Notes under the pieces: model-generated
The model's database searches: none
Told to the model about the DNA's origin: nothing
What the model saw: the letters and a program-made list of their open reading frames with translations, nothing else
Program-made: the position numbers and the translations under genes
Source of the DNA: a virus
Virus record (IMG/VR): IMGVR_UViG_3300037245_003639
Length of the DNA: 64,000 bases
Direction: 5' to 3' (one strand)
Part shown: one piece after another, positions 1,341-37,984 of the stretch
Layout: every line of letters begins with the position of its first letter
Position numbering within the stretch: position 1 is the stretch's first letter

Positions 1341-2456
1341 TTATTTATTCTTGGCAGTCTTCGGGGCTTTGTCCTGTTGGTTCTTGCTCTTATTCTCAAC
1401 TGCCAGTGATTTGATCAAACAACCATTAGACACCGCATACAGGGGATTTTCGGCCAAACGAGCGCTCTTCACTTTGAAGGGCAAGTCCACAGATTTGAGC
1501 ACTGCGTTAAATTTTTCCATGAAGCCAGGCACGCTGGCAGTCCCTCCTGCCACAATAACTTCCAGCGGAGAATCTATCTGGTTCTCAAGCTCATTGAATT
1601 TTTGAGCAAAATTCCGCAGAGCATGCTCAATCATGTTCTGATAAAAGATCTTCAAAGCTGCCTGACGCATATCAGACATATCCACATTGTTTAGGTCAAA
1701 GTTCTTTTCTTTGTAGCGAGTAATCACGGACATATCCACGCCAGCAACCTTGGCCGCTTCGCGGTCAATCCAGTCGCCCGAACGAGCTATGGAAAAACTA
1801 ATCAACGGCATTTGCCTGTAAGCAAAACAAACATTGCACATTCCAGCCCCAAAGGAAAAGGCAATTCCTGTAAATTTAGCCTCACCATTAGGTTCATTTT
1901 CATCTGGCATCGTTGGCTGCTCGCTGAAGATAATGGCCATCGCTTCCGGAATGCATTCGATAGAATACCCCAGTCCCTGCAAAAAACTCGTCAGCATAGT
2001 CTTGTGAAACATTACAGACAGATTGCTATCGATTGGATCTCCAGGAGAACAAAAACACAAAGTCTCATCAGGCTGGTTTGGCTTACCCAATAGATTCTCG
2101 ATGAGTTTTTGAATGATGGCTACACTGAGCTTTTCCTCGCTGGTATTCAGGATACCATTCTGCATTGGGCGCCGAAGTTCACTTATTTTGGTTGCGATTA
2201 GATTTTCGTTCGTCGAACTGGATTTTATTGTAAGAAGGTTTTTGAGTTTGATAGCATCCTCGCCAAGTATGTAAAAGTCATCATCATACTTGGCATATGC
2301 CCAGTTGTTTTCTTTGAGAGTTTCCTCGGTATCGTCAGTGGTAGCAGCATTGAGGAAAACGTTGCGTTCAACAGTAAAAGCACTGCCCCCACCCGCTATA
2401 TCGTCTACTTCGCTTTTGACGAGAAACATGGTCCCGATATCAAGGCCCTTAGCCAT
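1341..2456 (-). CDS. actin-like ATPase (ASKHA superfamily, ParM/MreB/Hsp70-like)
   Basis: N-terminal phosphate-1 motif GLDIGTMFLVK and C-terminal VIVAGGTASVPGF adenosine/phosphate-2 motif. Confidence 0.6.
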   Translation of the reverse strand: MAKGLDIGTMFLVKSEVDDIAGGGSAFTVERNVFLNAATTDDTEETLKENNWAYAKYDDDFYILGEDAIKLKNLLTIKSSSTNENLIATKISELRRPMQNGILNTSEEKLSVAIIQKLIENLLGKPNQPDETLCFCSPGDPIDSNLSVMFHKTMLTSFLQGLGYSIECIPEAMAIIFSEQPTMPDENEPNGEAKFTGIAFSFGAGMCNVCFAYRQMPLISFSIARSGDWIDREAAKVAGVDMSVITRYKEKNFDLNNVDMSDMRQAALKIFYQNMIEHALRNFAQKFNELENQIDSPLEVIVAGGTASVPGFMEKFNAVLKSVDLPFKVKSARLAENPLYAVSNGCLIKSLAVENKSKNQQDKAPKTAKNK

Positions 2457-5589: not shown

Positions 5590-6381
5590 TTAGTGAGGAA
5601 AGACATGCTGTCGGGTATGCTTGACCCAGTTCATAGAATTAAAGAGGTCCAATTTTGCCCGCAATTCCTGAGCGTCCGCAGAAACCTCGATAAAGCATTG
5701 AGACCAGGGGATTGTACGATTTTGAATCGGTTTGATCTGTGCAGTGGTCATCAAAAACTCCATTTTTGAACCATCAATTGGAACTGCCGAATTTTCAAGA
5801 ACCATCATATAATTTTCAAACTTGCGATATCGTTCCATTTCGTGAGCACGCCATTTTCTCTGCGTAGCAAGGTCTCCTAAAACATCAAACGCTTCTGCTA
5901 GCTTTTCTTTGATATTTTGGACAGTCCCAAATAACTGAAGCTTAACTTCTTTATCGGTCGCCGAGGCTACTCGATAAAGCTGTGAATCTTCGGAGACAGA
6001 AGTGAAATACTTTTGCGTCTCAGTCGATTGTCTAAAATTCTTAAGACTTCGTTCAAAATGCTCTTGAAGTTGGGCAAACTTACCTATAACCTCTACCGGG
6101 GATAAAAGCTGGCCGACAGTTAAAGTCACTGATGCAGGGGTATTGGCTTCGACTTGACAAACTCCACCTTTCTCGGGAAGAGTAACATCAGGTATTTTTG
6201 CGCTGACGATTACTTTATTCTCAGTGAAAGCGTCGCTTCTCGGCATCTTGCGATGAAGCCTAGCCCCCTTTGGAACGGCTTTCATAAAACGCCACTCGTA
6301 AAATTCCGCGGGAGAAATGGTGGCGAAATACGCAGCAGGATCGTTATTTACAGTAGTAAATGCCTGTGTTATCCAACTCAT
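5590..6381 (-). CDS. hypothetical protein
   Basis: 263-aa ORF. Confidence 0.5.
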   Translation of the reverse strand: MSWITQAFTTVNNDPAAYFATISPAEFYEWRFMKAVPKGARLHRKMPRSDAFTENKVIVSAKIPDVTLPEKGGVCQVEANTPASVTLTVGQLLSPVEVIGKFAQLQEHFERSLKNFRQSTETQKYFTSVSEDSQLYRVASATDKEVKLQLFGTVQNIKEKLAEAFDVLGDLATQRKWRAHEMERYRKFENYMMVLENSAVPIDGSKMEFLMTTAQIKPIQNRTIPWSQCFIEVSADAQELRAKLDLFNSMNWVKHTRQHVFPH

Positions 6382-6550
6382 GATGACAACCTTCTAAAAT
6401 AGCGAGGGAATACTCCAAATTGAGCAAGAACAGTGTTTAACTGACCATCCAGTTTGTCGAGGTCTTTCTTCTCTAGGACCGGCTTTTCCAAAAGCGTCTC
6501 CGCGAGTTTCTCGATTTCTTTGACCTCAGTAACATCGGATTTCTTTCTCA

Positions 6551-7324
6551 TTATTGTGCTCCTGTCTCTGGTACCGCAGGTACAGCGGAGATGGCTCCTG
6601 CCGCAGGAACCTCACGAGAAACCCCTGGAACATCTGCGGTTGCTCCGTCATCTTGAAAAGTTGAGGGATGAGTTTTGCGCTGGTCTTCGGGGGATTGACG
6701 GGGAGCAATAAACGGCTGAGCTATCTTTCGAACATCAACCCATAACGTTCCATCAAATCCCTCATAAGCATTAGATGTTCTTCCTCTAGACAATGCCAAT
6801 TCCGTAGGAAAATCCTGCATTAGATACATACCTTGAGCACTCGTATCGAGTGTCCCGGCTTTGACATCTCTGCGATACGCAGGAGGTAAGTTAGCCGCTG
6901 ACTTTGCCTCTTCAAAAACCTGGTTTAAATCTACAGAAACAGTGCGACCTGACATTTCTTGGGGAGGCTGGCAATCTTCCTCTTCCTTCTCAGCGACGGG
7001 TTCAGCACGACCTTCACCAGAGAACTCCTCGAAAGACATAACCTGCTCGCCCCTCTCTCCTGCTTGAGTCCTGCTTTCTTCCTCTGTTCTATGACCTGAT
7101 TCGTGTTGTATTGTGCTTTGTATCTCACAACGAATGTAAGGCAAAGCATCCTCGTAAATATCGACAGTTTCGTTCATCATTTGCTCAGGGATAATCTGGG
7201 CTATTCTAATTGATGGGTCAGTATGGCTGGCAGGAATGTTGGCATATACCATCGGGGTTCTATTGGGATATTTTCGACCTTGCGGAATAGACGCTGCTGG
7301 TATATGGTTATCGTATAGTATCAT
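6551..7324 (-). CDS. hypothetical acidic protein
   Basis: 257-aa ORF, longest frame in region; antisense ORFs considered spurious. Confidence 0.4.
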   Translation of the reverse strand: MILYDNHIPAASIPQGRKYPNRTPMVYANIPASHTDPSIRIAQIIPEQMMNETVDIYEDALPYIRCEIQSTIQHESGHRTEEESRTQAGERGEQVMSFEEFSGEGRAEPVAEKEEEDCQPPQEMSGRTVSVDLNQVFEEAKSAANLPPAYRRDVKAGTLDTSAQGMYLMQDFPTELALSRGRTSNAYEGFDGTLWVDVRKIAQPFIAPRQSPEDQRKTHPSTFQDDGATADVPGVSREVPAAGAISAVPAVPETGAQ

Positions 7325-7755
7325 TTTTGAACTCTAATTTGCAATCGATCTAAATCTTTCTTCACAATATCCTCAGCTTTGCCGATTACATAAAAGTTTG
7401 GGCTGAAGATATGTATATCTCCCTGTATGCCGTTCAATCTGCCCAGTACCTTCATCAACGTTTTGAAATTAGGACTTTCACTCCAAATGTCATCTACTTC
7501 TGAGCAGCCGACTTGAAGCATCACATCGGCCCGAAAAACAAGGCGGATAAAACCTTCATCTACCTTCTCGTTCATCCACTTTAGGTTATTTTCAGCGCTG
7601 GGCTCACTACCCAAGTGTCGAATAATCGTCTCCCAGTGGTGCTCTTCGTAATTTTCCCCTACTATGAGACCACCATCGGGCGCAATCCAATTCCCGACAG
7701 ATACGGTGAATCCTGCTTTATGAGCGACTTCTTCGCAGATTATCTCGGACACCAC
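7321..7755 (-). CDS. hypothetical protein
   Basis: 144-aa ORF, start overlaps upstream stop. Confidence 0.5.
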   Translation of the reverse strand: MVSEIICEEVAHKAGFTVSVGNWIAPDGGLIVGENYEEHHWETIIRHLGSEPSAENNLKWMNEKVDEGFIRLVFRADVMLQVGCSEVDDIWSESPNFKTLMKVLGRLNGIQGDIHIFSPNFYVIGKAEDIVKKDLDRLQIRVQK

Positions 7756-7782
7756 AGGCCTCTTTGCCGCTATACCGTGCCC

Positions 7783-8115
7783 TTATATTACGTCCCCTCC
7801 TTGAACGGCCACATCCATCGGCTCAGGGGCAGGAGCCTGTACTGGATCAGGGGACCGAACAGGTGCAGACCGAAAACCATCATGCATAACGTTTCTAGGA
7901 TGAACATCGTGCTCTTCCGCAGGATCTCCATCTGTTTTGACTCGATAGCGGTTGGTCGAACGATCGTAGTTAGTGACCTCACCTTTGCCGAAATCAGGCA
8001 TCAAAACTGTTTGCCCTTTACCTCGACGAGGAGAAGTTAGAAAACGGACCCTGTCTCCAGGGTTGTATCGTCGGTGACGAGCTTCTTTTTGTAGTATTGT
8101 TACGAGCCAATTCAT
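7783..8115 (-). CDS. hypothetical protein with MNWL N-terminal motif
   Basis: starts MNWLVTILQKE; SD-like AGAGAGG upstream. Confidence 0.5.
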   Translation of the reverse strand: MNWLVTILQKEARHRRYNPGDRVRFLTSPRRGKGQTVLMPDFGKGEVTNYDRSTNRYRVKTDGDPAEEHDVHPRNVMHDGFRSAPVRSPDPVQAPAPEPMDVAVQGGDVI

Positions 8116-8550: not shown

Positions 8551-9062
8551 TGTTGTTCTCCGAAAATCTTCGTTCCCATTGCTGAGAGCAACTCTATAAC
8601 TCCTGGATGTAGGTCCAATTGAGAGGCACCTTCCATTGATACCCATCTTGCGTCCGAAACCTCCCAGTTGAGTTGATAGTCCTCCCAGGCTAAATCCAGA
8701 ACTTCAACAATATAGGTAGTATACGTGAAAGTTCCATTGGGAGCCTGCCATACATATTCATCTATCAACCGATAATTCTGCGGTACACTCCCAATCTCTT
8801 CCATGGTTTCTCGTAGAGCTGATGCAAACGAATCCTCATGTTCAGGAATCGCGCCCCCTGTTACTCCCCAAGTATTAGGCTCGAAATCCACATTGTTAGA
8901 GCGAAGGGTCATCAACAACTGCCATCCAAAGTGAGGATGATTTCGAACAAAAAGAACTCCACTGGCACTGTTTCCCCAATAAACCTGTCCGTCTTCATCT
9001 TCGAAAGTCTCATCCTCCTCATAAGCTTGTTTTAGCCACTTTTCAGCGACAATCGCTTTCAT
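8547..9062 (-). CDS. NUDIX hydrolase
   Basis: Nudix box GGAIPEHEDSFASALRETMEEIG; start could alternatively be 9134. Confidence 0.65.
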   Translation of the reverse strand: MKAIVAEKWLKQAYEEDETFEDEDGQVYWGNSASGVLFVRNHPHFGWQLLMTLRSNNVDFEPNTWGVTGGAIPEHEDSFASALRETMEEIGSVPQNYRLIDEYVWQAPNGTFTYTTYIVEVLDLAWEDYQLNWEVSDARWVSMEGASQLDLHPGVIELLSAMGTKIFGEQQ

Positions 9063-24884: not shown

Positions 24885-26645
24885 ATGCTAGTTGTGAAAA
24901 GTTATCAACTGAACAAAACAGCGGCCCTACCTGCTGATATTTCTTTGCCTCTGGATGGTAAAGAGGAGCAAATCTTCTCTTTTATCAGACGGGCCATAGG
25001 TTCTATGCCCAAAGCTCCTGTGGCTCGGGTCGCCGGGGGCTGGGTGCGTGATAAATTACTGGGAAAACCGTCGAAAGACATTGATATTACAGTCGAAGGA
25101 ACCACAGGAGTTGAATTTGCAAATGCTCTCAGACAATATGCCATCGAAACCCAAGGAACAAAACAGAACATAGTTAGTCGGGTCAAAGACACAGAAGCGC
25201 GTCCCGAGCAAATCAAGAACTTGGCTGTTGCATTCCTGCGTATCTTTGATCAGGATATGGAAATTCTTGATCTGCGAGCAATCGAGTTCTATGAGAAGGG
25301 CAATCGAAATCCCACTGTGATTCGTCTCGAAGAGTTGAAAGCCATTGCACAACAACAGGGAATTCCGAGTTTCGTCAAAGACAAAGCTCCCCATTTGTTA
25401 TCTGCCATTAGCAAATTACCACATGGTAACAGCAACCATCCCAATGAAGTTCTTAAAACCCTTGACGCTCATCGACGAGATCTTACGATAAACTCGCTTT
25501 TCTACAACATCAACACAACGGAGATTGAGGATTTTACAGGTGAGGGATATGACGATTTGCTGACAATGACATTGCGGACTCCTATTGAACCCGTGAAAAC
25601 TTTTCAAGATGACCCTTTGCGAGTTCTTAGGATTCTGCGTTTCCACAGTCGTTACCCGAATTCCAAGATAGCCCCCGAAATTATTCAAGCAATGGCAGAT
25701 GAAGAAGTACAACATCAGATTACTCGTCGTCTTATCAAAGCAGATGAAACCGCAGGCATCGTCCCTGAAAGGACTGCTGAGGAATTACGCAAGCTAATGA
25801 TGGGAGCCCAGCCCGAAGCCGCTCTGCGGGTGATGCATGAAACGGGCCTGCTCCAGAAGATGTTTAATCTGCCAAAGGAATTTCACCCTCTGAATATGGA
25901 CCAAATGAGTTCATATCACAGTCTATCGGTTATTGAGCATATTCTAAATGTAGTAAAGAATGTCAATAACCTAGCCCAGGAATTCAATCTGTCTGGCCAG
26001 GAGAGGATGTTTCTAAATCTGGCCTCTCTATTCCACGACCTTGGGAAACTTGATCCTCGATCACATAAAGCAAAACCAGATGGAACAAGAGGCTATTCAG
26101 GAAGTGAAGCTGATGATTCACTGACCCATGAGCAATCCAGCTCAGATATGTGGGAAAGATTCGCGAGGGCTCTGAGGCTCAGTGATAAAGAACGGACAAC
26201 CATCCAAGATGTTGTTTCGGGGCACATGCGTCCACATGCTCACTTCGAGAATGAGATGCAATCTGCATCGGATAGAACATTACGACGTTATATGCGTAAA
26301 AACCCCCTATGGAAGTTGCAATATATCCTTGCCATGGGTGATGCTATGTCCAAAGCAGATGAGCCCGAGCCGCAGGCAGCAGACCCATATCGAGCAACCT
26401 ATGAGTACATGCAATCCCCAGGTTTTACCCCTCCACCGAAAAGTACTGAAAGACCTTTAGTAGATGGGCATCGAATCATCGAATTGGTTGGAGCCCATCC
26501 AAAGTCAGGTTACATTGAAGATGTCAAAGAGGAAATCAATCGCCTCCGCGATGAGAATCCTGCCTTAACTATTCAAGAAGCAGAACAGTTTATTCTCCAA
26601 ATGAAGGCCGATGGAGCATTCGCCCATCTTCCTCCTCTCCGTTAG
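24885..26645 (+). CDS. cca: CCA-adding tRNA nucleotidyltransferase with HD domain
   Basis: GGWVRDKLLG...DIDITVEG head motif, RRDLTINSLFYN, DPLRVLRILRF, HD motif LFHDLGK. Confidence 0.85.
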   Translation: MLVVKSYQLNKTAALPADISLPLDGKEEQIFSFIRRAIGSMPKAPVARVAGGWVRDKLLGKPSKDIDITVEGTTGVEFANALRQYAIETQGTKQNIVSRVKDTEARPEQIKNLAVAFLRIFDQDMEILDLRAIEFYEKGNRNPTVIRLEELKAIAQQQGIPSFVKDKAPHLLSAISKLPHGNSNHPNEVLKTLDAHRRDLTINSLFYNINTTEIEDFTGEGYDDLLTMTLRTPIEPVKTFQDDPLRVLRILRFHSRYPNSKIAPEIIQAMADEEVQHQITRRLIKADETAGIVPERTAEELRKLMMGAQPEAALRVMHETGLLQKMFNLPKEFHPLNMDQMSSYHSLSVIEHILNVVKNVNNLAQEFNLSGQERMFLNLASLFHDLGKLDPRSHKAKPDGTRGYSGSEADDSLTHEQSSSDMWERFARALRLSDKERTTIQDVVSGHMRPHAHFENEMQSASDRTLRRYMRKNPLWKLQYILAMGDAMSKADEPEPQAADPYRATYEYMQSPGFTPPPKSTERPLVDGHRIIELVGAHPKSGYIEDVKEEINRLRDENPALTIQEAEQFILQMKADGAFAHLPPLR

Positions 26646-34808: not shown

Positions 34809-34883
34809 GGCTGGATAGCCCAATTTGGCAGAGGCATACGGTTCAGAGCCGTAAAGTTATGGGTTCGACTCCCATTCCAGCCA
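34809..34883 (+). tRNA. tRNA, class I (5-nt variable loop), anticodon CAG (decodes Leu CUG)
   Basis: acceptor GGCTGGA/TCCAGCC, anticodon arm TACGG-TTCAGAG-CCGTA, T-arm ATGGG-TTCGACT-CCCAT, A73. Confidence 0.55.
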
Positions 34884-34945
34884 TTGCTAGGCTGCTCAGG
34901 GTGGAGCAGCGAGAGACTTGTTTCAAACTCTCCACCCACAGCTTT

Positions 34946-35018
34946 GCCAAGGTGGCCCAACGGCAGAGGCGTCCGTCTCAAAAGCGGAATGTTGTGGGTT
35001 CGACTCCCACTCTTGGCA
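34946..35018 (+). tRNA. tRNA, class I, anticodon CAA (decodes Leu UUG)
   Basis: acceptor GCCAAGG/TCTTGGC, anticodon arm TCCGT-CTCAAAA-GCGGA, T-arm GTGGG-TTCGACT-CCCAC, A73. Confidence 0.55.
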
Positions 35019-35030
35019 TTGAAAATTAAA

Positions 35031-35104
35031 GCCCAGGTAGCCCAATTGGCAGCGGCTCGTGGTTTAGGTCCACGGAGTTGGGGGTTCGAATCCCTCCCTG
35101 GGTA
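35031..35104 (+). tRNA. tRNA, class I, anticodon UAG (decodes Leu CUA)
   Basis: acceptor GCCCAGG/CCTGGGT, anticodon arm CGTGG-TTTAGGT-CCACG, T-loop TTCGAAT, A73. Confidence 0.55.
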
Positions 35105-35233
35105 TTTAGTCATATTGGACAGGAGCGCAACTACTGTCCATGATTGAGCATAAGTGGCATTGCGTAGGTGCTTATGCAAATGACTAGACCGAGGGTGCAT
35201 TGCACTAATCACTCTAGAGGCTCCTCGGCCGAA

Positions 35234-35307
35234 GCGGCGGTAGCCCAATGGCAGCAGGCACAGCACTTAAAATGCTGACAGTGCGGGTTCGAATCCCGCC
35301 CGCCGTA
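35234..35307 (+). tRNA. tRNA, class I, anticodon UAA (decodes Leu UUA)
   Basis: acceptor GCGGCGG/CCGCCGT, anticodon arm CAGCA-CTTAAAA-TGCTG, T-arm GCGGG-TTCGAAT-CCCGC, A73. Confidence 0.55.
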
Positions 35308-35593
35308 TTGGAGAAAATCATGACTCACTAGAACCGGAAAAACCGAAGATCAGTTTTCATGCAGATTGCGTGTTCCATTGTGGTAAAGATGATATACACC
35401 ATTACTGGCAGGAACCCGGAGCACCATTGGGTGAAAAACAAACTTGGCGAGTAGTCTGTGAGCATGGAACAGTTAGAGGCGCCTTTGAAAACGAACTCGT
35501 GGCAGAAATATTTGCCGCATCGATGAATTGGGCATATACCCACGGAGTTTGGAATCGCCCCTAACAACACTGTTCTCTGATAAATGAATAAAC

Positions 35594-35676
35594 GTGGACG
35601 TGGTGAAATGGCAGACACGCCAGCTTGAGGGGCTGGTCCGGGCAACCGGGTGGAGGTTCGACTCCTCTCGTCCGCA
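35594..35676 (+). tRNA. tRNA-Leu (GAG), canonical class II with long variable arm
   Basis: anticodon arm CCAGC-TTGAGGG-GCTGG, variable arm CCGG-GCAA-CCGG, T-arm GGAGG-TTCGACT-CCTCT, A73. Confidence 0.7.
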
Positions 35677-35687
35677 TTGTGACCCCT

Positions 35688-35706
35688 CCTGAGATAGTAT
35701 CTCAGG
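35688..35706 (+). other. perfect 9-bp hairpin (CCTGAGATA-G-TATCTCAGG) after tRNA-Leu; likely processing or termination signal
   Basis: seen directly. Confidence 0.4.
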
Positions 35707-35753
35707 ATCGACGCTTGACAGCGTTTCGGGTGTGTGGTAACATACACCCACTT

Positions 35754-35835
35754 GGGTGAGTTGAGCAATTGGCTGCTCAGCGGGCTGTAAACCCGCCGTC
35801 GTGAGGCATTGTGGGTTCGAATCCCTCCTCACCCA
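35754..35835 (+). tRNA. tRNA-Tyr (GUA), class II
   Basis: acceptor GGGTGAG/CTCACCC, anticodon arm GCGGG-CTGTAAA-CCCGC, long variable region, T-loop TTCGAAT; preceded by hairpin GGGTGTGT-GGTAAC-ATACACCC. Confidence 0.65.
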
Positions 35836-35879
35836 TTCCAGGTATAATCCACATGGAGTAAACCATGCTGGAGTAACCA

Positions 35880-36644
35880 ATGGCTAAGTTTCCAGATTTC
35901 GTTGTAGTCGGACAAACGAAAACCTGTACCACTTCCTTATGGTACAACCTCGATAATCATCCCGACATCACTATGTGTTCTCAGGAGAATGATTCTGAAA
36001 TCCTTACGGGAACAGAGATTACGTTTTGGGGAAGCCGTAATTTTGGCAAAGGGATCGAATGGTATAAGTCATTGTTTCAAGGAAAGGTCGCAGGAGAGAA
36101 AAGCCCAGGTTATATAAACAGGGCACAATGTTTCAAACAAATGTCTCGACATATGCCTGACGTAAAGTTGGTTCTTTGCATCCGCAATCCTGTGGATAGA
36201 GCATATTCTCAGTTTCAGATGAGACAACGCAGGAACCCTGTTACAAAAGCTCCTAGCTATCAAGAATTAGAACAGTCGTCAGAGAAAGGTCGATACTATA
36301 CGCTAATCACAAATAACGTCTTGCCTTACTTCCCTAGGGGGCAGTTGCACCTATGCGTTGCCGAGTGGATGCGTCATGACCCGAATGCTGAAATACAGAA
36401 GGTTTACGATTTTTTGGGCATCGGACACCATTCTCTTCCAAATGTAAGATTGGAATCTTCAATCGCTCATGGCAAAGGGAAACCCAAGGTAGAAGTAAAA
36501 CGGTCTGACGATTATAAAGAGTGGCATAATGAATATCCAAAGCTTCCGGCCCGCATGAGAGCGAAGTTACTGAAACTCTTTGAGAAGGACAATAACAGAT
36601 TGTTCAGTTTTCTAGGTTATGAGATTCCAGAATGGAGCAAATAA
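35880..36644 (+). CDS. sulfotransferase (PAPS-dependent, Sulfotransfer_1/3-like)
   Basis: 5'-PSB-like VVVGQTKTCTTSLW and 3'-PB-like CIRNPVDRAYSQF; TATAAT and GGAG upstream. Confidence 0.7.
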   Translation: MAKFPDFVVVGQTKTCTTSLWYNLDNHPDITMCSQENDSEILTGTEITFWGSRNFGKGIEWYKSLFQGKVAGEKSPGYINRAQCFKQMSRHMPDVKLVLCIRNPVDRAYSQFQMRQRRNPVTKAPSYQELEQSSEKGRYYTLITNNVLPYFPRGQLHLCVAEWMRHDPNAEIQKVYDFLGIGHHSLPNVRLESSIAHGKGKPKVEVKRSDDYKEWHNEYPKLPARMRAKLLKLFEKDNNRLFSFLGYEIPEWSK

Positions 36645-36699
36645 AGTGCGTAAAAGCAAGTTTCGGGTGTGTGGTAACATACACCCATCTGGGTGAGTT

Positions 36700-36780
36700 G
36701 GGCAGGTGGTGTGCCCAGTAGGCTGTAAACCTACCGTTTCGGCATTGGTGGTTCGATTCCACTCTCACCCATTCCTAGTG
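36700..36780 (+). tRNA. tRNA-Tyr (GUA), second diverged copy
   Basis: acceptor GGGTGAG/CTCACCC, anticodon arm GTAGG-CTGTAAA-CCTAC, T-arm GGTGG-TTCGATT-CCACT; same upstream hairpin motif. Confidence 0.65.
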
Positions 36781-36850
36781 TGATTTAACGTAAGTGGATC
36801 ACCTTGGGTGTCCAGCGAATAGTCGCTAAGACATTTATTAGGAAAACAGA

Positions 36851-37111
36851 ATGAAAGAAATTTCTGAAGAACAAGTTGAGTTTGTAAAATGCTCAGGCCG
36901 AAGTGGTTTCTCAATCAGGAGAGCCCTGATTGAAGTGGAAAAATCGGTTGTGGAATGGTGGAAAATGTACTATCATTCAGGTAATGGGCCTGGTGTCTCT
37001 GGGAGTTGTGACTTCGTTGCTCATGCCCCAACAAGAGAACTGGCTCTTGAGCAAGCTCGCAAAATAAAGAATGGGCCATACACCCATTTGTTTCTCAAAC
37101 TGGAGAGCTGA
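36851..37111 (+). CDS. hypothetical protein
   Basis: 86-aa ORF. Confidence 0.4.
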   Translation: MKEISEEQVEFVKCSGRSGFSIRRALIEVEKSVVEWWKMYYHSGNGPGVSGSCDFVAHAPTRELALEQARKIKNGPYTHLFLKLES

Positions 37112-37116
37112 AACCA

Positions 37117-37429
37117 TGCGTAAAAGCAAGAACATTAAACAACTGAAGGTGAAAGCTGCCAATGAGTATCGCAAGGGCAACAGGAAGGAGGCTTACAAAT
37201 TGTGGGAAAAAGCCCGAATTGAACGACTTATTCAACAAGAGAAGATGTAATGAGGTGGACTGGTACCAAACAATCGAGAATCCGTTGGCGACGAGCAGTT
37301 AGAAATCATCGAACAGAGCTTCAAGATAAACGTGATTCCTTTCATCGCTCAAAGGCAAAATCAGGGCATCGATATGTCGAGGAACTTATCTGGCCGTTAG
37401 CCTTACGGCCTAAAAAAAGACTTCGTTAG
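37117..37429 (+). other. two very basic small ORFs (44 aa and 59 aa)
   Basis: MRKSKNIKQLKVKAANEYRKGNRKEAYKLWEKARIERLIQQEKM (37117..37251) and MRWTGTKQSRIRWRRAVRNHRTELQDKRDSFHRSKAKSGHRYVEELIWPLALRPKKRLR (37250..37429); below ORF-track cutoff. Confidence 0.2.
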
Positions 37430-37496
37430 GTCATCCAGCGGCTCTGGACCTGGGTCTCCAAAACCCGGAGGATCGGCTCGACCCCGATATGGCCTG
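37428..37496 (+). tRNA. tRNA-like element, anticodon-loop CCA (Trp-like) with compact non-canonical D-arm
   Basis: acceptor AGGTCAT/ATGGCCT, anticodon arm TGGGT-CTCCAAA-ACCCG, T-arm ATCGG-CTCGACC-CCGAT; only 69 nt, D region 16 nt. Confidence 0.3.
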
Positions 37497-37535
37497 TTGA
37501 GAGGATGCGGCCTAGCAGTAATTGCTTACATACTC

Positions 37536-37620
37536 TTTATGTGGGTTCGAGTCCCATCATTGCAGAGATTCTGCGATGTAGCCTAACTGGCAAAGGCAAC
37601 TGTCTGCAAAACAGTGAAGT
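37536..37620 (+). tRNA. split/circularly permuted tRNA-like locus: 3' half (T-arm + acceptor 3' strand + G73) followed 6 nt later by 5' half (acceptor 5' strand, D-arm, anticodon arm with GCA)
   Basis: 3' half TTATGTGGGTTCGAGTCCCATCATTGCAG almost identical to 3' half of tRNA at 34809; 5' half TGCGATG-TA-GCCTAACTGGCAAAGGC-A-ACTGT-CTGCAAA-ACAGT; acceptor halves complementary (7/7 with G-U). Confidence 0.4.
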
Positions 37621-37660
37621 GAGAAAACAGCAATGCAAACTTTCGCATCCTTCTCTTTTT

Positions 37661-37731
37661 GAGCGCGTACCCAAGTGGCTAGGGAGCGGATTGCAAACCC
37701 GCCTACGTCGGTTCGACTCCGACCGTGCTCT
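37661..37731 (+). tRNA. tRNA-Cys (GCA)
   Basis: acceptor GAGCGCG/CGTGCTC, anticodon loop TTGCAAA, T-arm GTCGG-TTCGACT-CCGAC, U73 discriminator typical of Cys. Confidence 0.65.
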
Positions 37732-37735
37732 TGTT

Positions 37736-37809
37736 GGGGCCGTGGTGCAATTGGTTAGCACATCTGCCTGTCACGCAGAAGGTTGCCGGTTCGAGTCCGG
37801 TCGGTCTCG
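37736..37809 (+). tRNA. tRNA-Asp (GUC)
   Basis: acceptor GGGGCCG/CGGTCTC, anticodon arm TCTGC-CTGTCAC-GCAGA, T-arm GCCGG-TTCGAGT-CCGGT, G73. Confidence 0.7.
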
Positions 37810-37812
37810 TTT

Positions 37813-37887
37813 GGGCTATTGGAAGAGTCTGGAGTCTTCGCCTGCTTGTCACGCAGGAGATCACGAGTTCAAATCTCGTATAGCCCG
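37813..37887 (+). tRNA. tRNA-Asp (GUC), second diverged copy
   Basis: acceptor GGGCTAT/ATAGCCC, D-stem GAAG/CTTC, anticodon arm CCTGC-TTGTCAC-GCAGG, T-arm ACGAG-TTCAAAT-CTCGT, G73. Confidence 0.65.
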
Positions 37888-37890
37888 TTT

Positions 37891-37984
37891 GCCACAGTAG
37901 TTTAAGGACTAAGGCAAAACGTCGAGCCCGTCTTCTTAATAGAGCGGGTGCTCGATCATGCGAGTTCGAGTCTCGTCTGTGGCT
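37891..37984 (+). tRNA. 94-nt tRNA-like element with canonical acceptor and T-arm but atypical body (long bulged hairpin with 14-nt loop); identity unassigned
   Basis: acceptor GCCACAG/CTGTGGC, T-arm GCGAG-TTCGAGT-CTCGT; internal hairpin TCGAGCCCG-(TCTTCTTAATAGAG)-CGGGTGCTCGA. Confidence 0.35.

What the first reader, a model, noticed from the sequence alone, without database searches (positions are those of the whole stretch)
37536..37620. 3'-half then 5'-half tRNA arrangement, either circularly permuted or a tandem-array remnant
A T-arm plus 3' acceptor strand plus G (…TTATGTGGGTTCGAGTCCCATCATTGCAG) is nearly identical to the 3' half of the class-I family. It is followed after 6 nt by a matching 5' half: acceptor TGCGATG, TA, the family D-arm, and anticodon arm ACTGT-CTGCAAA-ACAGT with anticodon GCA. 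The two acceptor strands are fully complementary (7/7 including one G-U). The break falls in the variable loop (…ACAGT GAAG / TTAT GTGGG…). This is the gene order of permuted tRNA genes known from some algae and archaea. The alternative is the junction of two tandem copies after flanking halves were deleted.
Basis: partly seen in the sequence, partly recalled or inferred. Interest (0 to 1): 0.65.

Follow-up and report, generated by a model that had tools for sequence, protein, structure and literature searches.

The report
Phage Y-RNA-like permuted tRNA mimic
The "back-to-front tRNA" is real and is one copy of a conserved family of tRNA-shaped small RNAs in large phages that usually sit beside a Ro60 (Y-RNA-binding) protein gene, so it is a variant of a known RNA class, not a decayed or algal-style permuted tRNA gene.

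Summary
Window 37541-37615 (+) reads T-arm, 3' acceptor strand, G, 6-nt linker, complementary 5' acceptor strand (7/7, one G-U), UA, D-arm, then a GCA anticodon arm. Neither half belongs to an ordinary tRNA.

It is not a local accident. Scans of viral contigs found at least 25 other elements with the same order. Their acceptor, T and anticodon stems covary. They share a YYACA motif and a covarying closing helix formed by the flanks, and the window copy has both. Ro60/TROVE-like genes lie in 14 of 25 such loci against 7 of 104 control loci, often directly downstream on the same strand.

The best reading is therefore a Y-RNA-like tRNA mimic of the YrlA class, which the literature already describes as resembling circularly permuted tRNAs. 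It departs from canonical YrlA in several ways:
- it keeps a complete anticodon arm, and the closing stem leaves from the variable-loop position;
- it lacks the GNCGAA motif;
- it scores 24.6 bits against an Rfam threshold of 69;
- no Ro60-like gene lies in the 64-kb window.

Function and processing (RNase P cleavage, CCA addition) are inferred. A two-piece functional tRNA is not excluded.

The parts
37499..37509 (+). P1 5' strand (GAGAGGATGCG) of the outer closing helix
   Evidence: RNAfold of 37495-37660 pairs it with 37644-37655: 11 bp with T37651 bulged. P1 is window-specific and has not been tested by covariation.
37521..37526 (+). P2 5' strand (ATTGCT)
   Evidence: It pairs 6/6 with AGCAAT at 37629-37634. 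The equivalent 6-mer just 5' of the YYACA motif finds a 6/6 partner in its own 3' flank in 10 of 18 family members, against 12.6% in cross-element controls. The paired sequences differ between members, which is covariation.
37526..37530 (+). TTACA, the family's conserved YYACA motif (5' strand of the internal loop)
   Evidence: ACA is invariant in alignment A5 of 10 relatives plus the window. YYACA occurs in 11 of 22 non-redundant 5' flanks, against 3.4 in shuffles.
37533..37535 (+). P3 5' strand (CTC)
   Evidence: RNAduplex pairs it with GAG at 37621-37623. The same geometry (2-3 bp, a loop of about 5 nt, then 6 or more bp) appears in L086, L059, L098, L030 and L019.
37541..37557 (+). T-arm (GTGGG TTCGAGT CCCAT), preceded by U37540 in the position of nucleotide 48
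   Evidence: Aligned without non-standard pairs to model R1. The three T-stem pairs not fixed by the search pattern covary across the family.
37558..37564 (+). 3' strand of the closed acceptor-like stem (CATTGCA)
   Evidence: 7/7 pairing with 37572-37578.
37565..37571 (+). Loop closing the acceptor stem: G in the discriminator position, then AGATTC
   Evidence: In the family the nucleotide after position 73 is C in 22 of 26, CC in 12 of 26 and CCA in 8 of 26. The window copy has no CCA, and neither do the window's ordinary tRNA genes.
37572..37578 (+). 5' strand of the acceptor-like stem (TGCGATG). The predicted RNase P site lies between 37571 and 37572.
   Evidence: Pairing. The cleavage site is inferred from M. 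smegmatis YrlA, which has a 7-bp stem and is cut by RNase P (PMC4201824).
37579..37597 (+). U8-A9 connector and D-arm (GCCT AACTGGCAA AGGC), with A14, A15 and G18-G19
   Evidence: The UA connector and D-arm are invariant in the family, partly because the search pattern fixed them.
37599..37615 (+). Anticodon arm (ACTGT CTGCAAA ACAGT): U33, anticodon GCA at 37606-37608, A37
   Evidence: A perfect 5-bp stem directly after N26 occurs in 17 of 26 family members, mostly with 7-nt loops of the form CU-NNN-AA. All five stem pairs show compensatory changes.
37621..37623 (+). P3 3' strand (GAG)
37624..37628 (+). AAAAC, the 3' strand of the internal loop
   Evidence: A/C-rich pentamers (GAAAC, AAACC, AATCA, ATTCC) precede the P2 3' strand in relatives.
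37629..37634 (+). P2 3' strand (AGCAAT)
37644..37655 (+). P1 3' strand (CGCATCC-T-TCTC), followed by TTTTT
24885..26645 (+). Context, not part of the RNA: a phage CCA-adding enzyme (PolyA_pol head, RNA-binding and HD domains). It could add CCA to a cleaved acceptor end.
   Evidence: Pfam PF01743 at 1.1e-20, PF12627 and PF01966. Its role on this RNA is inferred only.

Best explanation
Window 37499-37655 (+) encodes a small structured RNA of the Y-RNA-like (YrlA-type) tRNA-mimic class. It is embedded in the tRNA array of a large phage.

Its core is a complete tRNA cloverleaf written in permuted order: T-arm, acceptor stem closed by a 7-nt loop, D-arm, anticodon arm. The two ends of the RNA leave the core at the variable-loop position. 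There they pair into a long interrupted stem (P3, a conserved YYACA/AAAC internal loop, P2, P1).

By analogy with characterised Y RNAs, the stem would bind a Ro60/Rsr ring protein. That protein would be encoded elsewhere in the phage genome or by the host. The tRNA-like head would recruit a tRNA-binding partner such as a modification, processing or repair enzyme, or a nuclease.

The acceptor stem is 7 bp long, as in M. smegmatis YrlA. The RNA is therefore a plausible RNase P substrate. It could be cut in the loop and given CCA by the phage's own CCA-adding enzyme, leaving two pieces held together by the acceptor and closing stems.

Shown here: the anatomy, the conservation and covariation of the family, and the family's association with Ro60-like genes. 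Inferred: Ro60 binding, processing and biological role.
For: 1. Anatomy is exact. MFE folding recovers the T-arm, acceptor hairpin, anticodon arm and an 11-bp outer helix.

2. Family. At least 25 other viral-contig elements have the same order. 7/7 acceptor complementarity occurs 20 times against 0.85 expected. 26 of 28 complementary cases lie outside ARAGORN tRNAs. Over the T, acceptor, D and anticodon helices, 90.9% of cells are paired against 62.9% in shuffles, and 156 cells carry changes on both sides against 50.

3. Flanks. Each element's own flanks pair better than cross-element controls (-27.5 against -20.1 kcal/mol, p = 1.3e-4). The YYACA motif and the covarying P2 helix are present in the window copy at the family's positions.

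4. Context. TROVE and Ro60-vWA are the most frequent Pfam families near the elements, and RtcB, PNKP and Rnl1 also occur. A Ro60-like profile hits 14 of 25 element loci against 7 of 104 others (Fisher p = 1.4e-7), often directly downstream on the same strand. Several of the 7 'other' loci also carry elements.

5. Rfam's YrlA model aligns full-length to the window at 24.6 bits. This is similar to the scores of TROVE-adjacent phage copies, 28.6-37.5 bits.

6. Literature. YrlA consists of a T-arm, closed acceptor stem and D-arm, occurs in phages, and 'resembles circularly permuted tRNAs'. M. smegmatis YrlA, with a 7-bp stem, is cut by RNase P and receives CCA (PMC4201824; 10.1101/312249; PMC12135203).
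Against: - No Ro60/TROVE-like ORF lies anywhere in the 64-kb window (Pfam; phmmer and profile HMM at E<=10). None lies in the 5 kb beyond its 5' end either. Published YrlAs lie within 4 kb of the Ro60 gene.
- The YrlA Rfam score is far below the gathering threshold (24.6 against 69), in the range that junctions of ordinary tandem tRNAs can reach (17-26 bits).
- The GNCGAAN0-1G motif is absent.
- My own model R1, built without the window, gives 64.0 bits. Junctions of ordinary tandem tRNAs reach 62.6 bits. The model score alone does not establish membership.
- Part of the acceptor-stem covariation reflects selection by my own filter.
- No expression data exist.
Confidence: 0.68

Rival explanations
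1. It is a functional permuted tRNA gene that yields a two-piece (split) tRNA. RNase P cuts at 37571/37572. The 3' side is trimmed to G73 and receives CCA. The two pieces stay together through the 7-bp acceptor stem and the closing stem, which takes the place of a long variable arm. The molecule is then aminoacylated and decodes UGY codons, or acts as a chargeable decoy.
For: - The acceptor stem is 7 bp. C follows N73 in 22 of 26 family members and CCA in 8 of 26.
- The anticodon arms are tRNA-like: a 5-bp stem and a 7-nt loop with U33 and R37, carrying diverse anticodons (GAT, TCA, TTG, TTT, GCT, TAC, TAG).
- L059 and L098, whose Ro60 proteins are 97% identical, differ in the element only in the acceptor loop and the anticodon (TTT against GCT).
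- The element sits in a tRNA array next to a phage CCA-adding enzyme.
- M. smegmatis YrlA is cut by RNase P and receives CCA in vivo.
Against: - The family is tied to Ro60-like genes.
- Some members have no anticodon arm, or loops of 6, 8 or 9 nt, or A33.
- The window copy has G73, whereas Cys identity needs U73 (established tRNA identity rules). An ordinary tRNA-Cys(GCA) with U73 lies 45 nt downstream at 37661-37731.
- No two-piece elongator tRNA is known in bacteria or phages (my knowledge; literature searches found none).
Confidence: 0.12
2. It is a Ro60-independent tRNA mimic. It could be a decoy or sensor for host tRNA-targeting defences such as anticodon nucleases. It could also be a processing or punctuation element in the polycistronic tRNA transcript.
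For: - No Ro60 gene lies in 64 kb.
- The element sits inside the tRNA array.
- One relative (L012) lies beside an Rnl1-type ligase, PNKP and RlaP, a tRNA-repair cassette, with no Ro60 detected.
- Anticodons vary between close relatives.
- Phage tRNAs are known to counter tRNA-cleaving defences (PMC10264068, listed).
Against: The window copy shares the YYACA/P2 stem module with relatives that do sit beside Ro60-like genes (L086, L059, L030-type geometry). This suggests the same protein partner. No direct evidence supports any decoy activity.
Confidence: 0.13
3. It is a non-functional remnant: the junction of two tandem tRNA copies whose outer halves were deleted or decayed.
For: - The array is dynamic. 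It contains an 82%-identical duplicated tRNA-Tyr segment and other aberrant tRNA-like sequences.
- TGCGATG can also pair 6/7 with the downstream CAATGCA. This gives a 31-bit tRNA hit that lacks a T-arm.
- Junctions of ordinary tandem tRNAs score nearly as well on R1.
Against: - The flanks show no significant similarity to the missing halves.
- The same architecture, with covarying stems, a shared flank motif and the P2 helix, recurs in at least 25 unrelated phage contigs.
- 7/7 complementarity across a 6-nt linker is not expected from neighbouring tRNAs (0.85 against 20 observed).
Confidence: 0.05

Closest known systems
YrlA, the bacterial and phage Y-RNA-like tRNA mimic (Rfam RF02553; Chen et al. 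2014, PMC4201824; Wang et al. 2018, 10.1101/312249)
   Same: - Order: T-arm, acceptor-like stem closed by a loop, UA connector, D-arm.
- tRNA elbow nucleotides: GG in the D-loop, UUCGA in the T-loop, a pyrimidine before the T stem.
- The 5' and 3' ends pair into a long interrupted stem.
- It occurs in phages.
- At the family level it is adjacent to Ro60/TROVE genes, often just upstream on the same strand.
- The 7-bp-stem version (M. smegmatis) is cut by RNase P and receives CCA.
   Different: - The window element keeps a self-contained anticodon arm with a 7-nt loop. Its closing stem leaves from the variable-loop position rather than forming the 'anticodon stem'.
- GNCGAAN0-1G is absent. A YYACA motif stands in its place.
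- It scores 24.6 bits against the gathering score of 69.
- No Ro60 gene lies within 4 kb, or within the 64-kb window.
Circularly permuted tRNA genes of Cyanidioschyzon, green algae and Thermofilum (Soma 2007; Maruyama 2010; Chan 2011, as cited)
   Same: The 3' half lies upstream of the 5' half with a short linker that closes the acceptor stem. The ends pair.
   Different: Those genes are matured by a splicing endonuclease at a bulge-helix-bulge motif, then by ligation into a circle, then by RNase P/Z opening. No bulge-helix-bulge motif is present here. The break is in the variable region rather than at the positions seen there. The carrier is a bacteriophage, and the family is linked to Ro60-like genes.
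Two-piece (permuted) tmRNA genes of alpha-proteobacteria and cyanobacteria
   Same: They are permuted bacterial genes in which the T-arm and 3' acceptor strand precede the 5' acceptor strand. The product stays as two base-paired pieces without ligation.
   Different: tmRNA has no D stem or anticodon arm, and it carries a tag reading frame and pseudoknots. ARAGORN finds no tmRNA here.
Thermus phage phiLo Yrl1/Yrl2 with phiRo60 (PMC12135203)
   Same: Phage-encoded Y-RNA-like genes lie just upstream of a phage Ro60 gene, the synteny seen for many relatives of the window element.
   Different: Those RNAs were defined by a stem-bulge-stem with a CGAA motif. The text read mentions no tRNA-like cloverleaf.

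Membership tests
YrlA (RF02553; Chen et al. 2014) | tRNA-like module in the order T-arm, closed acceptor-like stem, UA, D-arm, with elbow nucleotides conserved | tested here: met
   37541-37597. It has UUCGA in the T-loop, GG in the D-loop, U before the T stem and the UA connector.
YrlA (RF02553; Chen et al. 2014) | Reaches Rfam's gathering score (69 bits) | tested here: not met
   24.6 bits, full-length alignment with non-standard pairs in the Ro-binding stems. TROVE-adjacent phage relatives also score only 28.6-37.5 bits.
YrlA (RF02553; Chen et al. 2014) | GNCGAAN0-1G motif near the 5' end (presumed Rsr contact) | tested here: not met
   A regex search of the 70 nt upstream finds it in neither the window nor any of the 25 relatives.
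YrlA (RF02553; Chen et al. 2014) | Encoded within about 4 kb of a Ro60/TROVE gene, on the same strand | tested here: not met
   No TROVE or Ro60-like ORF in the 64 kb or in the 5 kb beyond the 5' end. The feature is met for 14 of 25 relatives.
YrlA (RF02553; Chen et al. 2014) | The 'anticodon stem' is formed by the 5' and 3' strands, with no anticodon loop | tested here: not met
   The window has its own hairpin, ACTGT-CTGCAAA-ACAGT. The closing stem starts 5 nt after it.
YrlA (RF02553; Chen et al. 2014) | Bound by Rsr/Ro60; modified by TruB and DusA | not testable with these tools
   Needs immunoprecipitation, EMSA or modification mapping.
   7/7 pairing. ARAGORN finds no overlapping tRNA.
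   5/5 pairs, loop CTGCAAA.
   TTACA at -15. ATTGCT pairs 6/6 with AGCAAT at +14, which is preceded by AAAAC.
   R1 gives 64.0 bits (E = 6.6e-15) with all pairs standard. Ordinary junctions reach 62.6 bits.
Circularly permuted tRNA genes (algal and archaeal type) | 3' half upstream of the 5' half, joined by a short linker | tested here: met
Circularly permuted tRNA genes (algal and archaeal type) | Bulge-helix-bulge motif (3-nt bulge, 4-bp helix, 3-nt bulge) where the termini pair | tested here: not met
   By inspection of the pairing: 5-nt joiners, a 3-bp P3, a 6x5 internal loop and a 6-bp P2.
Circularly permuted tRNA genes (algal and archaeal type) | Circular intermediate and a contiguous mature tRNA; splicing endonuclease present | not testable with these tools
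   Needs circular RT-PCR or RNA-seq. No such bacterial enzyme has been reported.
Two-piece tmRNA | Detected as tmRNA, with a tag reading frame and no D stem | tested here: not met
   ARAGORN reports no tmRNA. A full D-arm is present.

The most novel reading that the evidence does not exclude
The element, and the 7-bp-stem members of its family whose loops contain CCA, are genuine permuted genes for two-piece tRNAs. RNase P opens the acceptor loop. CCA is exposed or added. The halves stay joined through the acceptor stem and a variable-arm-like closing stem. The molecule is then charged and used on the ribosome, or serves as a chargeable decoy for anticodon nucleases. Ro60 would act as its chaperone or quality controller rather than the RNA being a mere tether.
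Probability: 0.12. Interest if true: 0.85.

Novelty: new variant of a known kind. Interest (0 to 1): 0.45.

Why it matters
Y RNAs that mimic tRNA are known, but the partner of the tRNA-like head and the purpose of the mimicry remain unresolved.

This phage subtype is the most tRNA-complete version seen in the sources read here. It has a 7-bp acceptor stem, often with NCCA in the loop, a real anticodon arm with varied anticodons, and a tRNA-array context. It is widespread in large phage contigs, yet it falls below Rfam's threshold, so annotation pipelines miss it.

It offers a tractable set of natural variants for three questions:
- whether such RNAs are cut by RNase P and charged;
- whether the anticodon matters, for example against anticodon nucleases;
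- how divergent Ro60-like proteins recognise a YYACA-type stem instead of GNCGAA.

It is also a plausible living intermediate for the proposed origin of YrlA from dimeric tRNA transcripts.

For genome annotation the practical point is simple. A 3'-half/5'-half tRNA junction in a phage tRNA array should be checked as a Y-RNA-like gene before being called a pseudogene.

Tried and rejected
- **Close relatives of the window.** The exact junction pattern gave no hits in viral contigs. The neighbouring pilin-like and DnaJ proteins gave nothing in IMG/VR. The pilin-like protein has no homologues at all. The GenBank phage collection returned only generic tRNA-Asp matches. The only other copies of this DNA are 100% identical contigs. 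Direct orthologues were therefore unavailable, and a motif-based search was used instead.
- **T-arm-less tRNA** (Rfam hit at 37572-37638, 31.1 bits). Rejected because 13 nt replace the T-arm, there is an A-A mismatch, the upstream strand pairs 7/7, and that arrangement is conserved.
- **Phage attP or integration-site fragment** (a 3' tRNA half). Rejected because the adjacent complementary 5' half, the covariation and the closing stem are not explained by it.
- **Permuted tmRNA.** No ARAGORN call.
- **Intron-containing or insert-containing tRNA.** This is true of L006, a normal-order tRNA with an insert of about 70 nt. It is not true of the window or the other elements.
- **Covariance model R1 as a membership test.** It proved non-discriminating against ordinary tandem-tRNA junctions.
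- **Large vWA proteins of L005 and L010.** No BLASTP similarity to each other or to the window. L005's was later recognised by the Ro60-like profile.
- **Bacterial Gemmataceae/Planctomycetia loci carrying the Ro60-like gene** (L132, L133, L135). No R1 hit.
- **Finding the Ro60 gene of this genome.** Scanning homologue clusters for the 403-kb contig length found nothing among the 120 rows shown. Walking off the window ends reached only short contigs.

Full report
**The observation**

The window's + strand at 37541-37615 reads, without gaps:
- T-arm GTGGG-TTCGAGT-CCCAT
- CATTGCA
- G
- AGATTC
- TGCGATG
- TA
- D-arm GCCT-AACTGGCAA-AGGC
- A
- anticodon arm ACTGT-CTGCAAA-ACAGT

ARAGORN finds eleven tRNAs in the surrounding array (34809-37984) but none here. 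Rfam's tRNA model gives only a marginal 31.1-bit hit at 37572-37638. In that hit 13 nt stand in for the T-arm, and a downstream CAATGCA pairs 6/7.

Rfam's YrlA (Y RNA-like) model aligns full-length to 37521-37626 at 24.6 bits, far below its threshold of 69. The T-arm, closed-acceptor and D-arm part matches well. The Ro-binding stems do not.

**Surroundings**

The window is part of a large phage genome. It encodes PhoH, RNase H, DnaJ, NDK, a Dam methylase, glycosyl- and sulfotransferases, a LAGLIDADG endonuclease and a CCA-adding enzyme at 24885-26645. A tail-tube gene lies just beyond the 5' end.

Identical DNA occurs in two samples. No close relatives could be found through neighbouring proteins or exact DNA.

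**A family, not an accident**

Scanning viral contigs for the element's D-arm sequence gave 10 loci. In five of them the D-arm is preceded by a T-arm, a 3' acceptor strand, a 4-9-nt linker and a perfectly complementary 5' acceptor strand. The acceptor sequences differ between loci.

- Among 104 unique instances, the number of complementary acceptor positions is bimodal. It is 7/7 in 20 and 6/7 in 8, against 0.85 and 3.4 expected when partners are permuted.
- 26 of those 28 lie outside any ARAGORN tRNA on both halves.
- Most instances with 5 or fewer complementary positions are junctions of two ordinary tRNAs.

In an alignment of the 25 non-window elements, the T, acceptor, D and anticodon helices are 90.9% paired, against 62.9% in shuffles. 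They carry 156 cells with changes on both sides, against 50. The acceptor covariation is partly a product of my filter. The T-stem and anticodon-stem covariation is not.

Seventeen of 26 have a perfect 5-bp stem right after N26. Most of these have 7-nt loops of the form CU-NNN-AA with many different anticodons.

The base after position 73 is C in 22 of 26, CC in 12 and CCA in 8. The window copy has AGA. None of the window's ordinary tRNA genes encodes CCA either.

**Flanks**

In the window, 37499-37509 pairs with 37644-37655 (11 bp, one bulge). ATTGCT at 37521-37526 pairs with AGCAAT at 37629-37634, and CTC pairs with GAG.

Across the family, each element's own flanks pair better than cross-element controls (-27.5 against -20.1 kcal/mol, p = 1.3e-4). 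They share a geometry: a 2-3-bp helix, an internal loop of about 5x5 nt, then a helix of 6-12 bp.

The 5' strand of the loop carries a conserved YYACA. ACA is invariant in alignment A5. YYACA is present in 11 of 22 non-redundant flanks, against 3.4 in shuffles.

The 6-mer just before the motif finds a 6/6 partner in its own 3' flank in 10 of 18 elements, against 12.6% in cross controls. The paired sequences differ between elements. The window conforms at every point.

The window's flanks show no significant similarity to the 'missing' tRNA halves (p = 0.31 and 0.42).

**Genomic partners**

Among 85 ORFs from the 25 loci, the most frequent Pfam families are TROVE (6) and Ro60-vWA (6). RtcB (2) and DUF2828/DUF7788 (2) also occur. 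One locus carries Rnl1, PNKP and RlaP.

The proteins of about 490-570 aa next to the elements form one homologous set that links to TROVE proteins. Many database homologues carry the Ro60 vWA domain.

A profile of these proteins hits 14 of 25 element loci against 7 of 104 others (Fisher p = 1.4e-7). Several of the seven also carry elements with other D-arm sequences. One is in the 595-kb contig LR756511, where the element lies 3.5 kb upstream of the Ro60-like gene.

In many loci the element sits directly upstream of the gene on the same strand. This is the synteny reported for YrlA and for phage phiLo.

Rfam's YrlA model scores these TROVE-adjacent copies only 28.6-37.5 bits. The whole subtype is therefore sub-threshold.

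**Interpretation**

The element is best explained as a Y-RNA-like tRNA mimic of the YrlA class. The literature describes YrlA as a T-arm, a loop-closed acceptor stem and a D-arm on a Ro60-binding stem. It states that these RNAs 'resemble circularly permuted tRNAs'. It proposes an origin from dimeric tRNA transcripts. It also shows that the 7-bp-stem YrlA of M. smegmatis is cleaved by RNase P and receives CCA.

The present subtype differs in four ways:
- It keeps a full anticodon arm.
- The closing stem leaves the core at the variable-loop position, giving a five-way junction like a class II tRNA whose variable arm is open.
- GNCGAAN0-1G is absent from all 26 members and a YYACA motif takes its place.
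- The acceptor stem is tRNA-length, often with NCCA.

**What argues against**

The window has no Ro60-like gene in 64 kb, or in 5 kb beyond its 5' end. If the Y-RNA reading holds, the protein partner is elsewhere in the genome or in the host. One cluster statistic gives a longest contig of about 403 kb. Homologues of the Ro60-like family are common in Gemmataceae and Planctomycetia MAGs. That is only a hint about the host.

My covariance model R1, built without the window, scores the element 64.0 bits with every pair standard. Junctions of ordinary tandem tRNAs reach 62.6 bits. Membership therefore rests on four things rather than on the score:
- the 7/7 acceptor stem;
- the absence of the rest of either tRNA;
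- the YYACA motif;
- the P2 helix.

There are no expression data.

**Rivals**

A functional two-piece tRNA is not excluded. The 7-bp stem, the CCA bias, the tRNA-like anticodon loops and the nearby CCA-adding enzyme all fit it. The window copy, however, has G73 rather than the U73 of Cys identity. An ordinary tRNA-Cys(GCA) lies 45 nt downstream.

A Ro60-independent decoy or processing role is possible.

Simple decay is disfavoured by the conservation.

**Verdict**

This is a new variant of a known kind, of moderate interest.

Noticed in passing
window 34809-35307 (+): Four tRNAs of class-I size (74-75 nt) carry the Leu anticodons CAG, CAA, TAG and TAA, all with A73. A class-II tRNA-Leu(GAG) follows at 35594-35676. 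Bacterial and phage tRNA-Leu normally has a long variable arm. Their D-arm (TAGCCCAAT-TGGCAG) is the same type as that of the permuted element. Similar class-I 'Leu' tRNAs occur in L004/L008.
   Followed up: partly
window 37428-37496 (+): A cloverleaf-like sequence with anticodon CCA (Trp) sits directly upstream of the element. Its MFE fold has a 7-bp acceptor stem, a 4-bp D stem with a 5-nt loop lacking GG, and the T-loop CUCGACC. ARAGORN and Rfam both miss it. The folding z-score is 0.
   Followed up: partly
window 37891-37984 (+): ARAGORN calls a 94-nt 'tRNA-Leu(gag)' that Rfam's tRNA model does not match. It has a good acceptor stem and T-arm but a long central hairpin (about 37921-37955) instead of normal D and anticodon arms.
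   Followed up: partly
window 35723-35839 and 36660-36775 (+): An 82%-identical duplicated segment consists of a promoter-like sequence (TTGACA...TAACAT in the first copy) plus tRNA-Tyr(GTA). The two copies flank a sulfotransferase gene (35880-36644) inserted in the tRNA array.
   Followed up: no
window 1341-2456 (-): A phage-encoded actin-like protein matches Pfam Volactin (PF25216) at 9e-69. A LAGLIDADG homing endonuclease ORF is also present somewhere in the window but was not located.
   Followed up: no
L117 5242-5985 (-): Four to five tandem YrlA-like elements lie downstream of a TROVE/Ro60 gene (6208-7887). Three are full-length YrlA alignments at 36-37 bits, and one more was found by my pattern.
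   Followed up: partly
L059 (-, about 8760-8880) and L098 (-): In two phages whose Ro60 proteins are 97% identical, the adjacent elements differ only in the acceptor-loop linker and in the anticodon (CTTTTAA against CTGCTAA, that is UUU against GCU).
   Followed up: no
L006 3404-3544 (-): A normal-order tRNA-like gene has an insert of about 70 nt between the anticodon arm and the T-arm. The insert contains a hairpin (CCCTCCCCCG-N-CCAGGGGAGG) that is repeated in the upstream spacer. The anticodon loop CAGAAAA lacks U33. L005 7040-7180 looks similar.
   Followed up: partly
L012 3981-6587 and 7660-7750 (+): A permuted tRNA-like element lies about 1 kb downstream of an RNA-repair cassette (T4 Rnl1-type ligase, RlaP, PNKP). 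No Ro60-like gene was detected in that locus.
   Followed up: no
proteins P0002-P0121; L132, L133, L135: A Ro60-like family of about 500 aa is mostly unrecognised by Pfam's TROVE model; only some members carry PF25045. It has more than 1,700 members, many in Gemmataceae/Planctomycetia MAGs. The three bacterial loci examined show no element matching model R1 next to the gene.
   Followed up: partly
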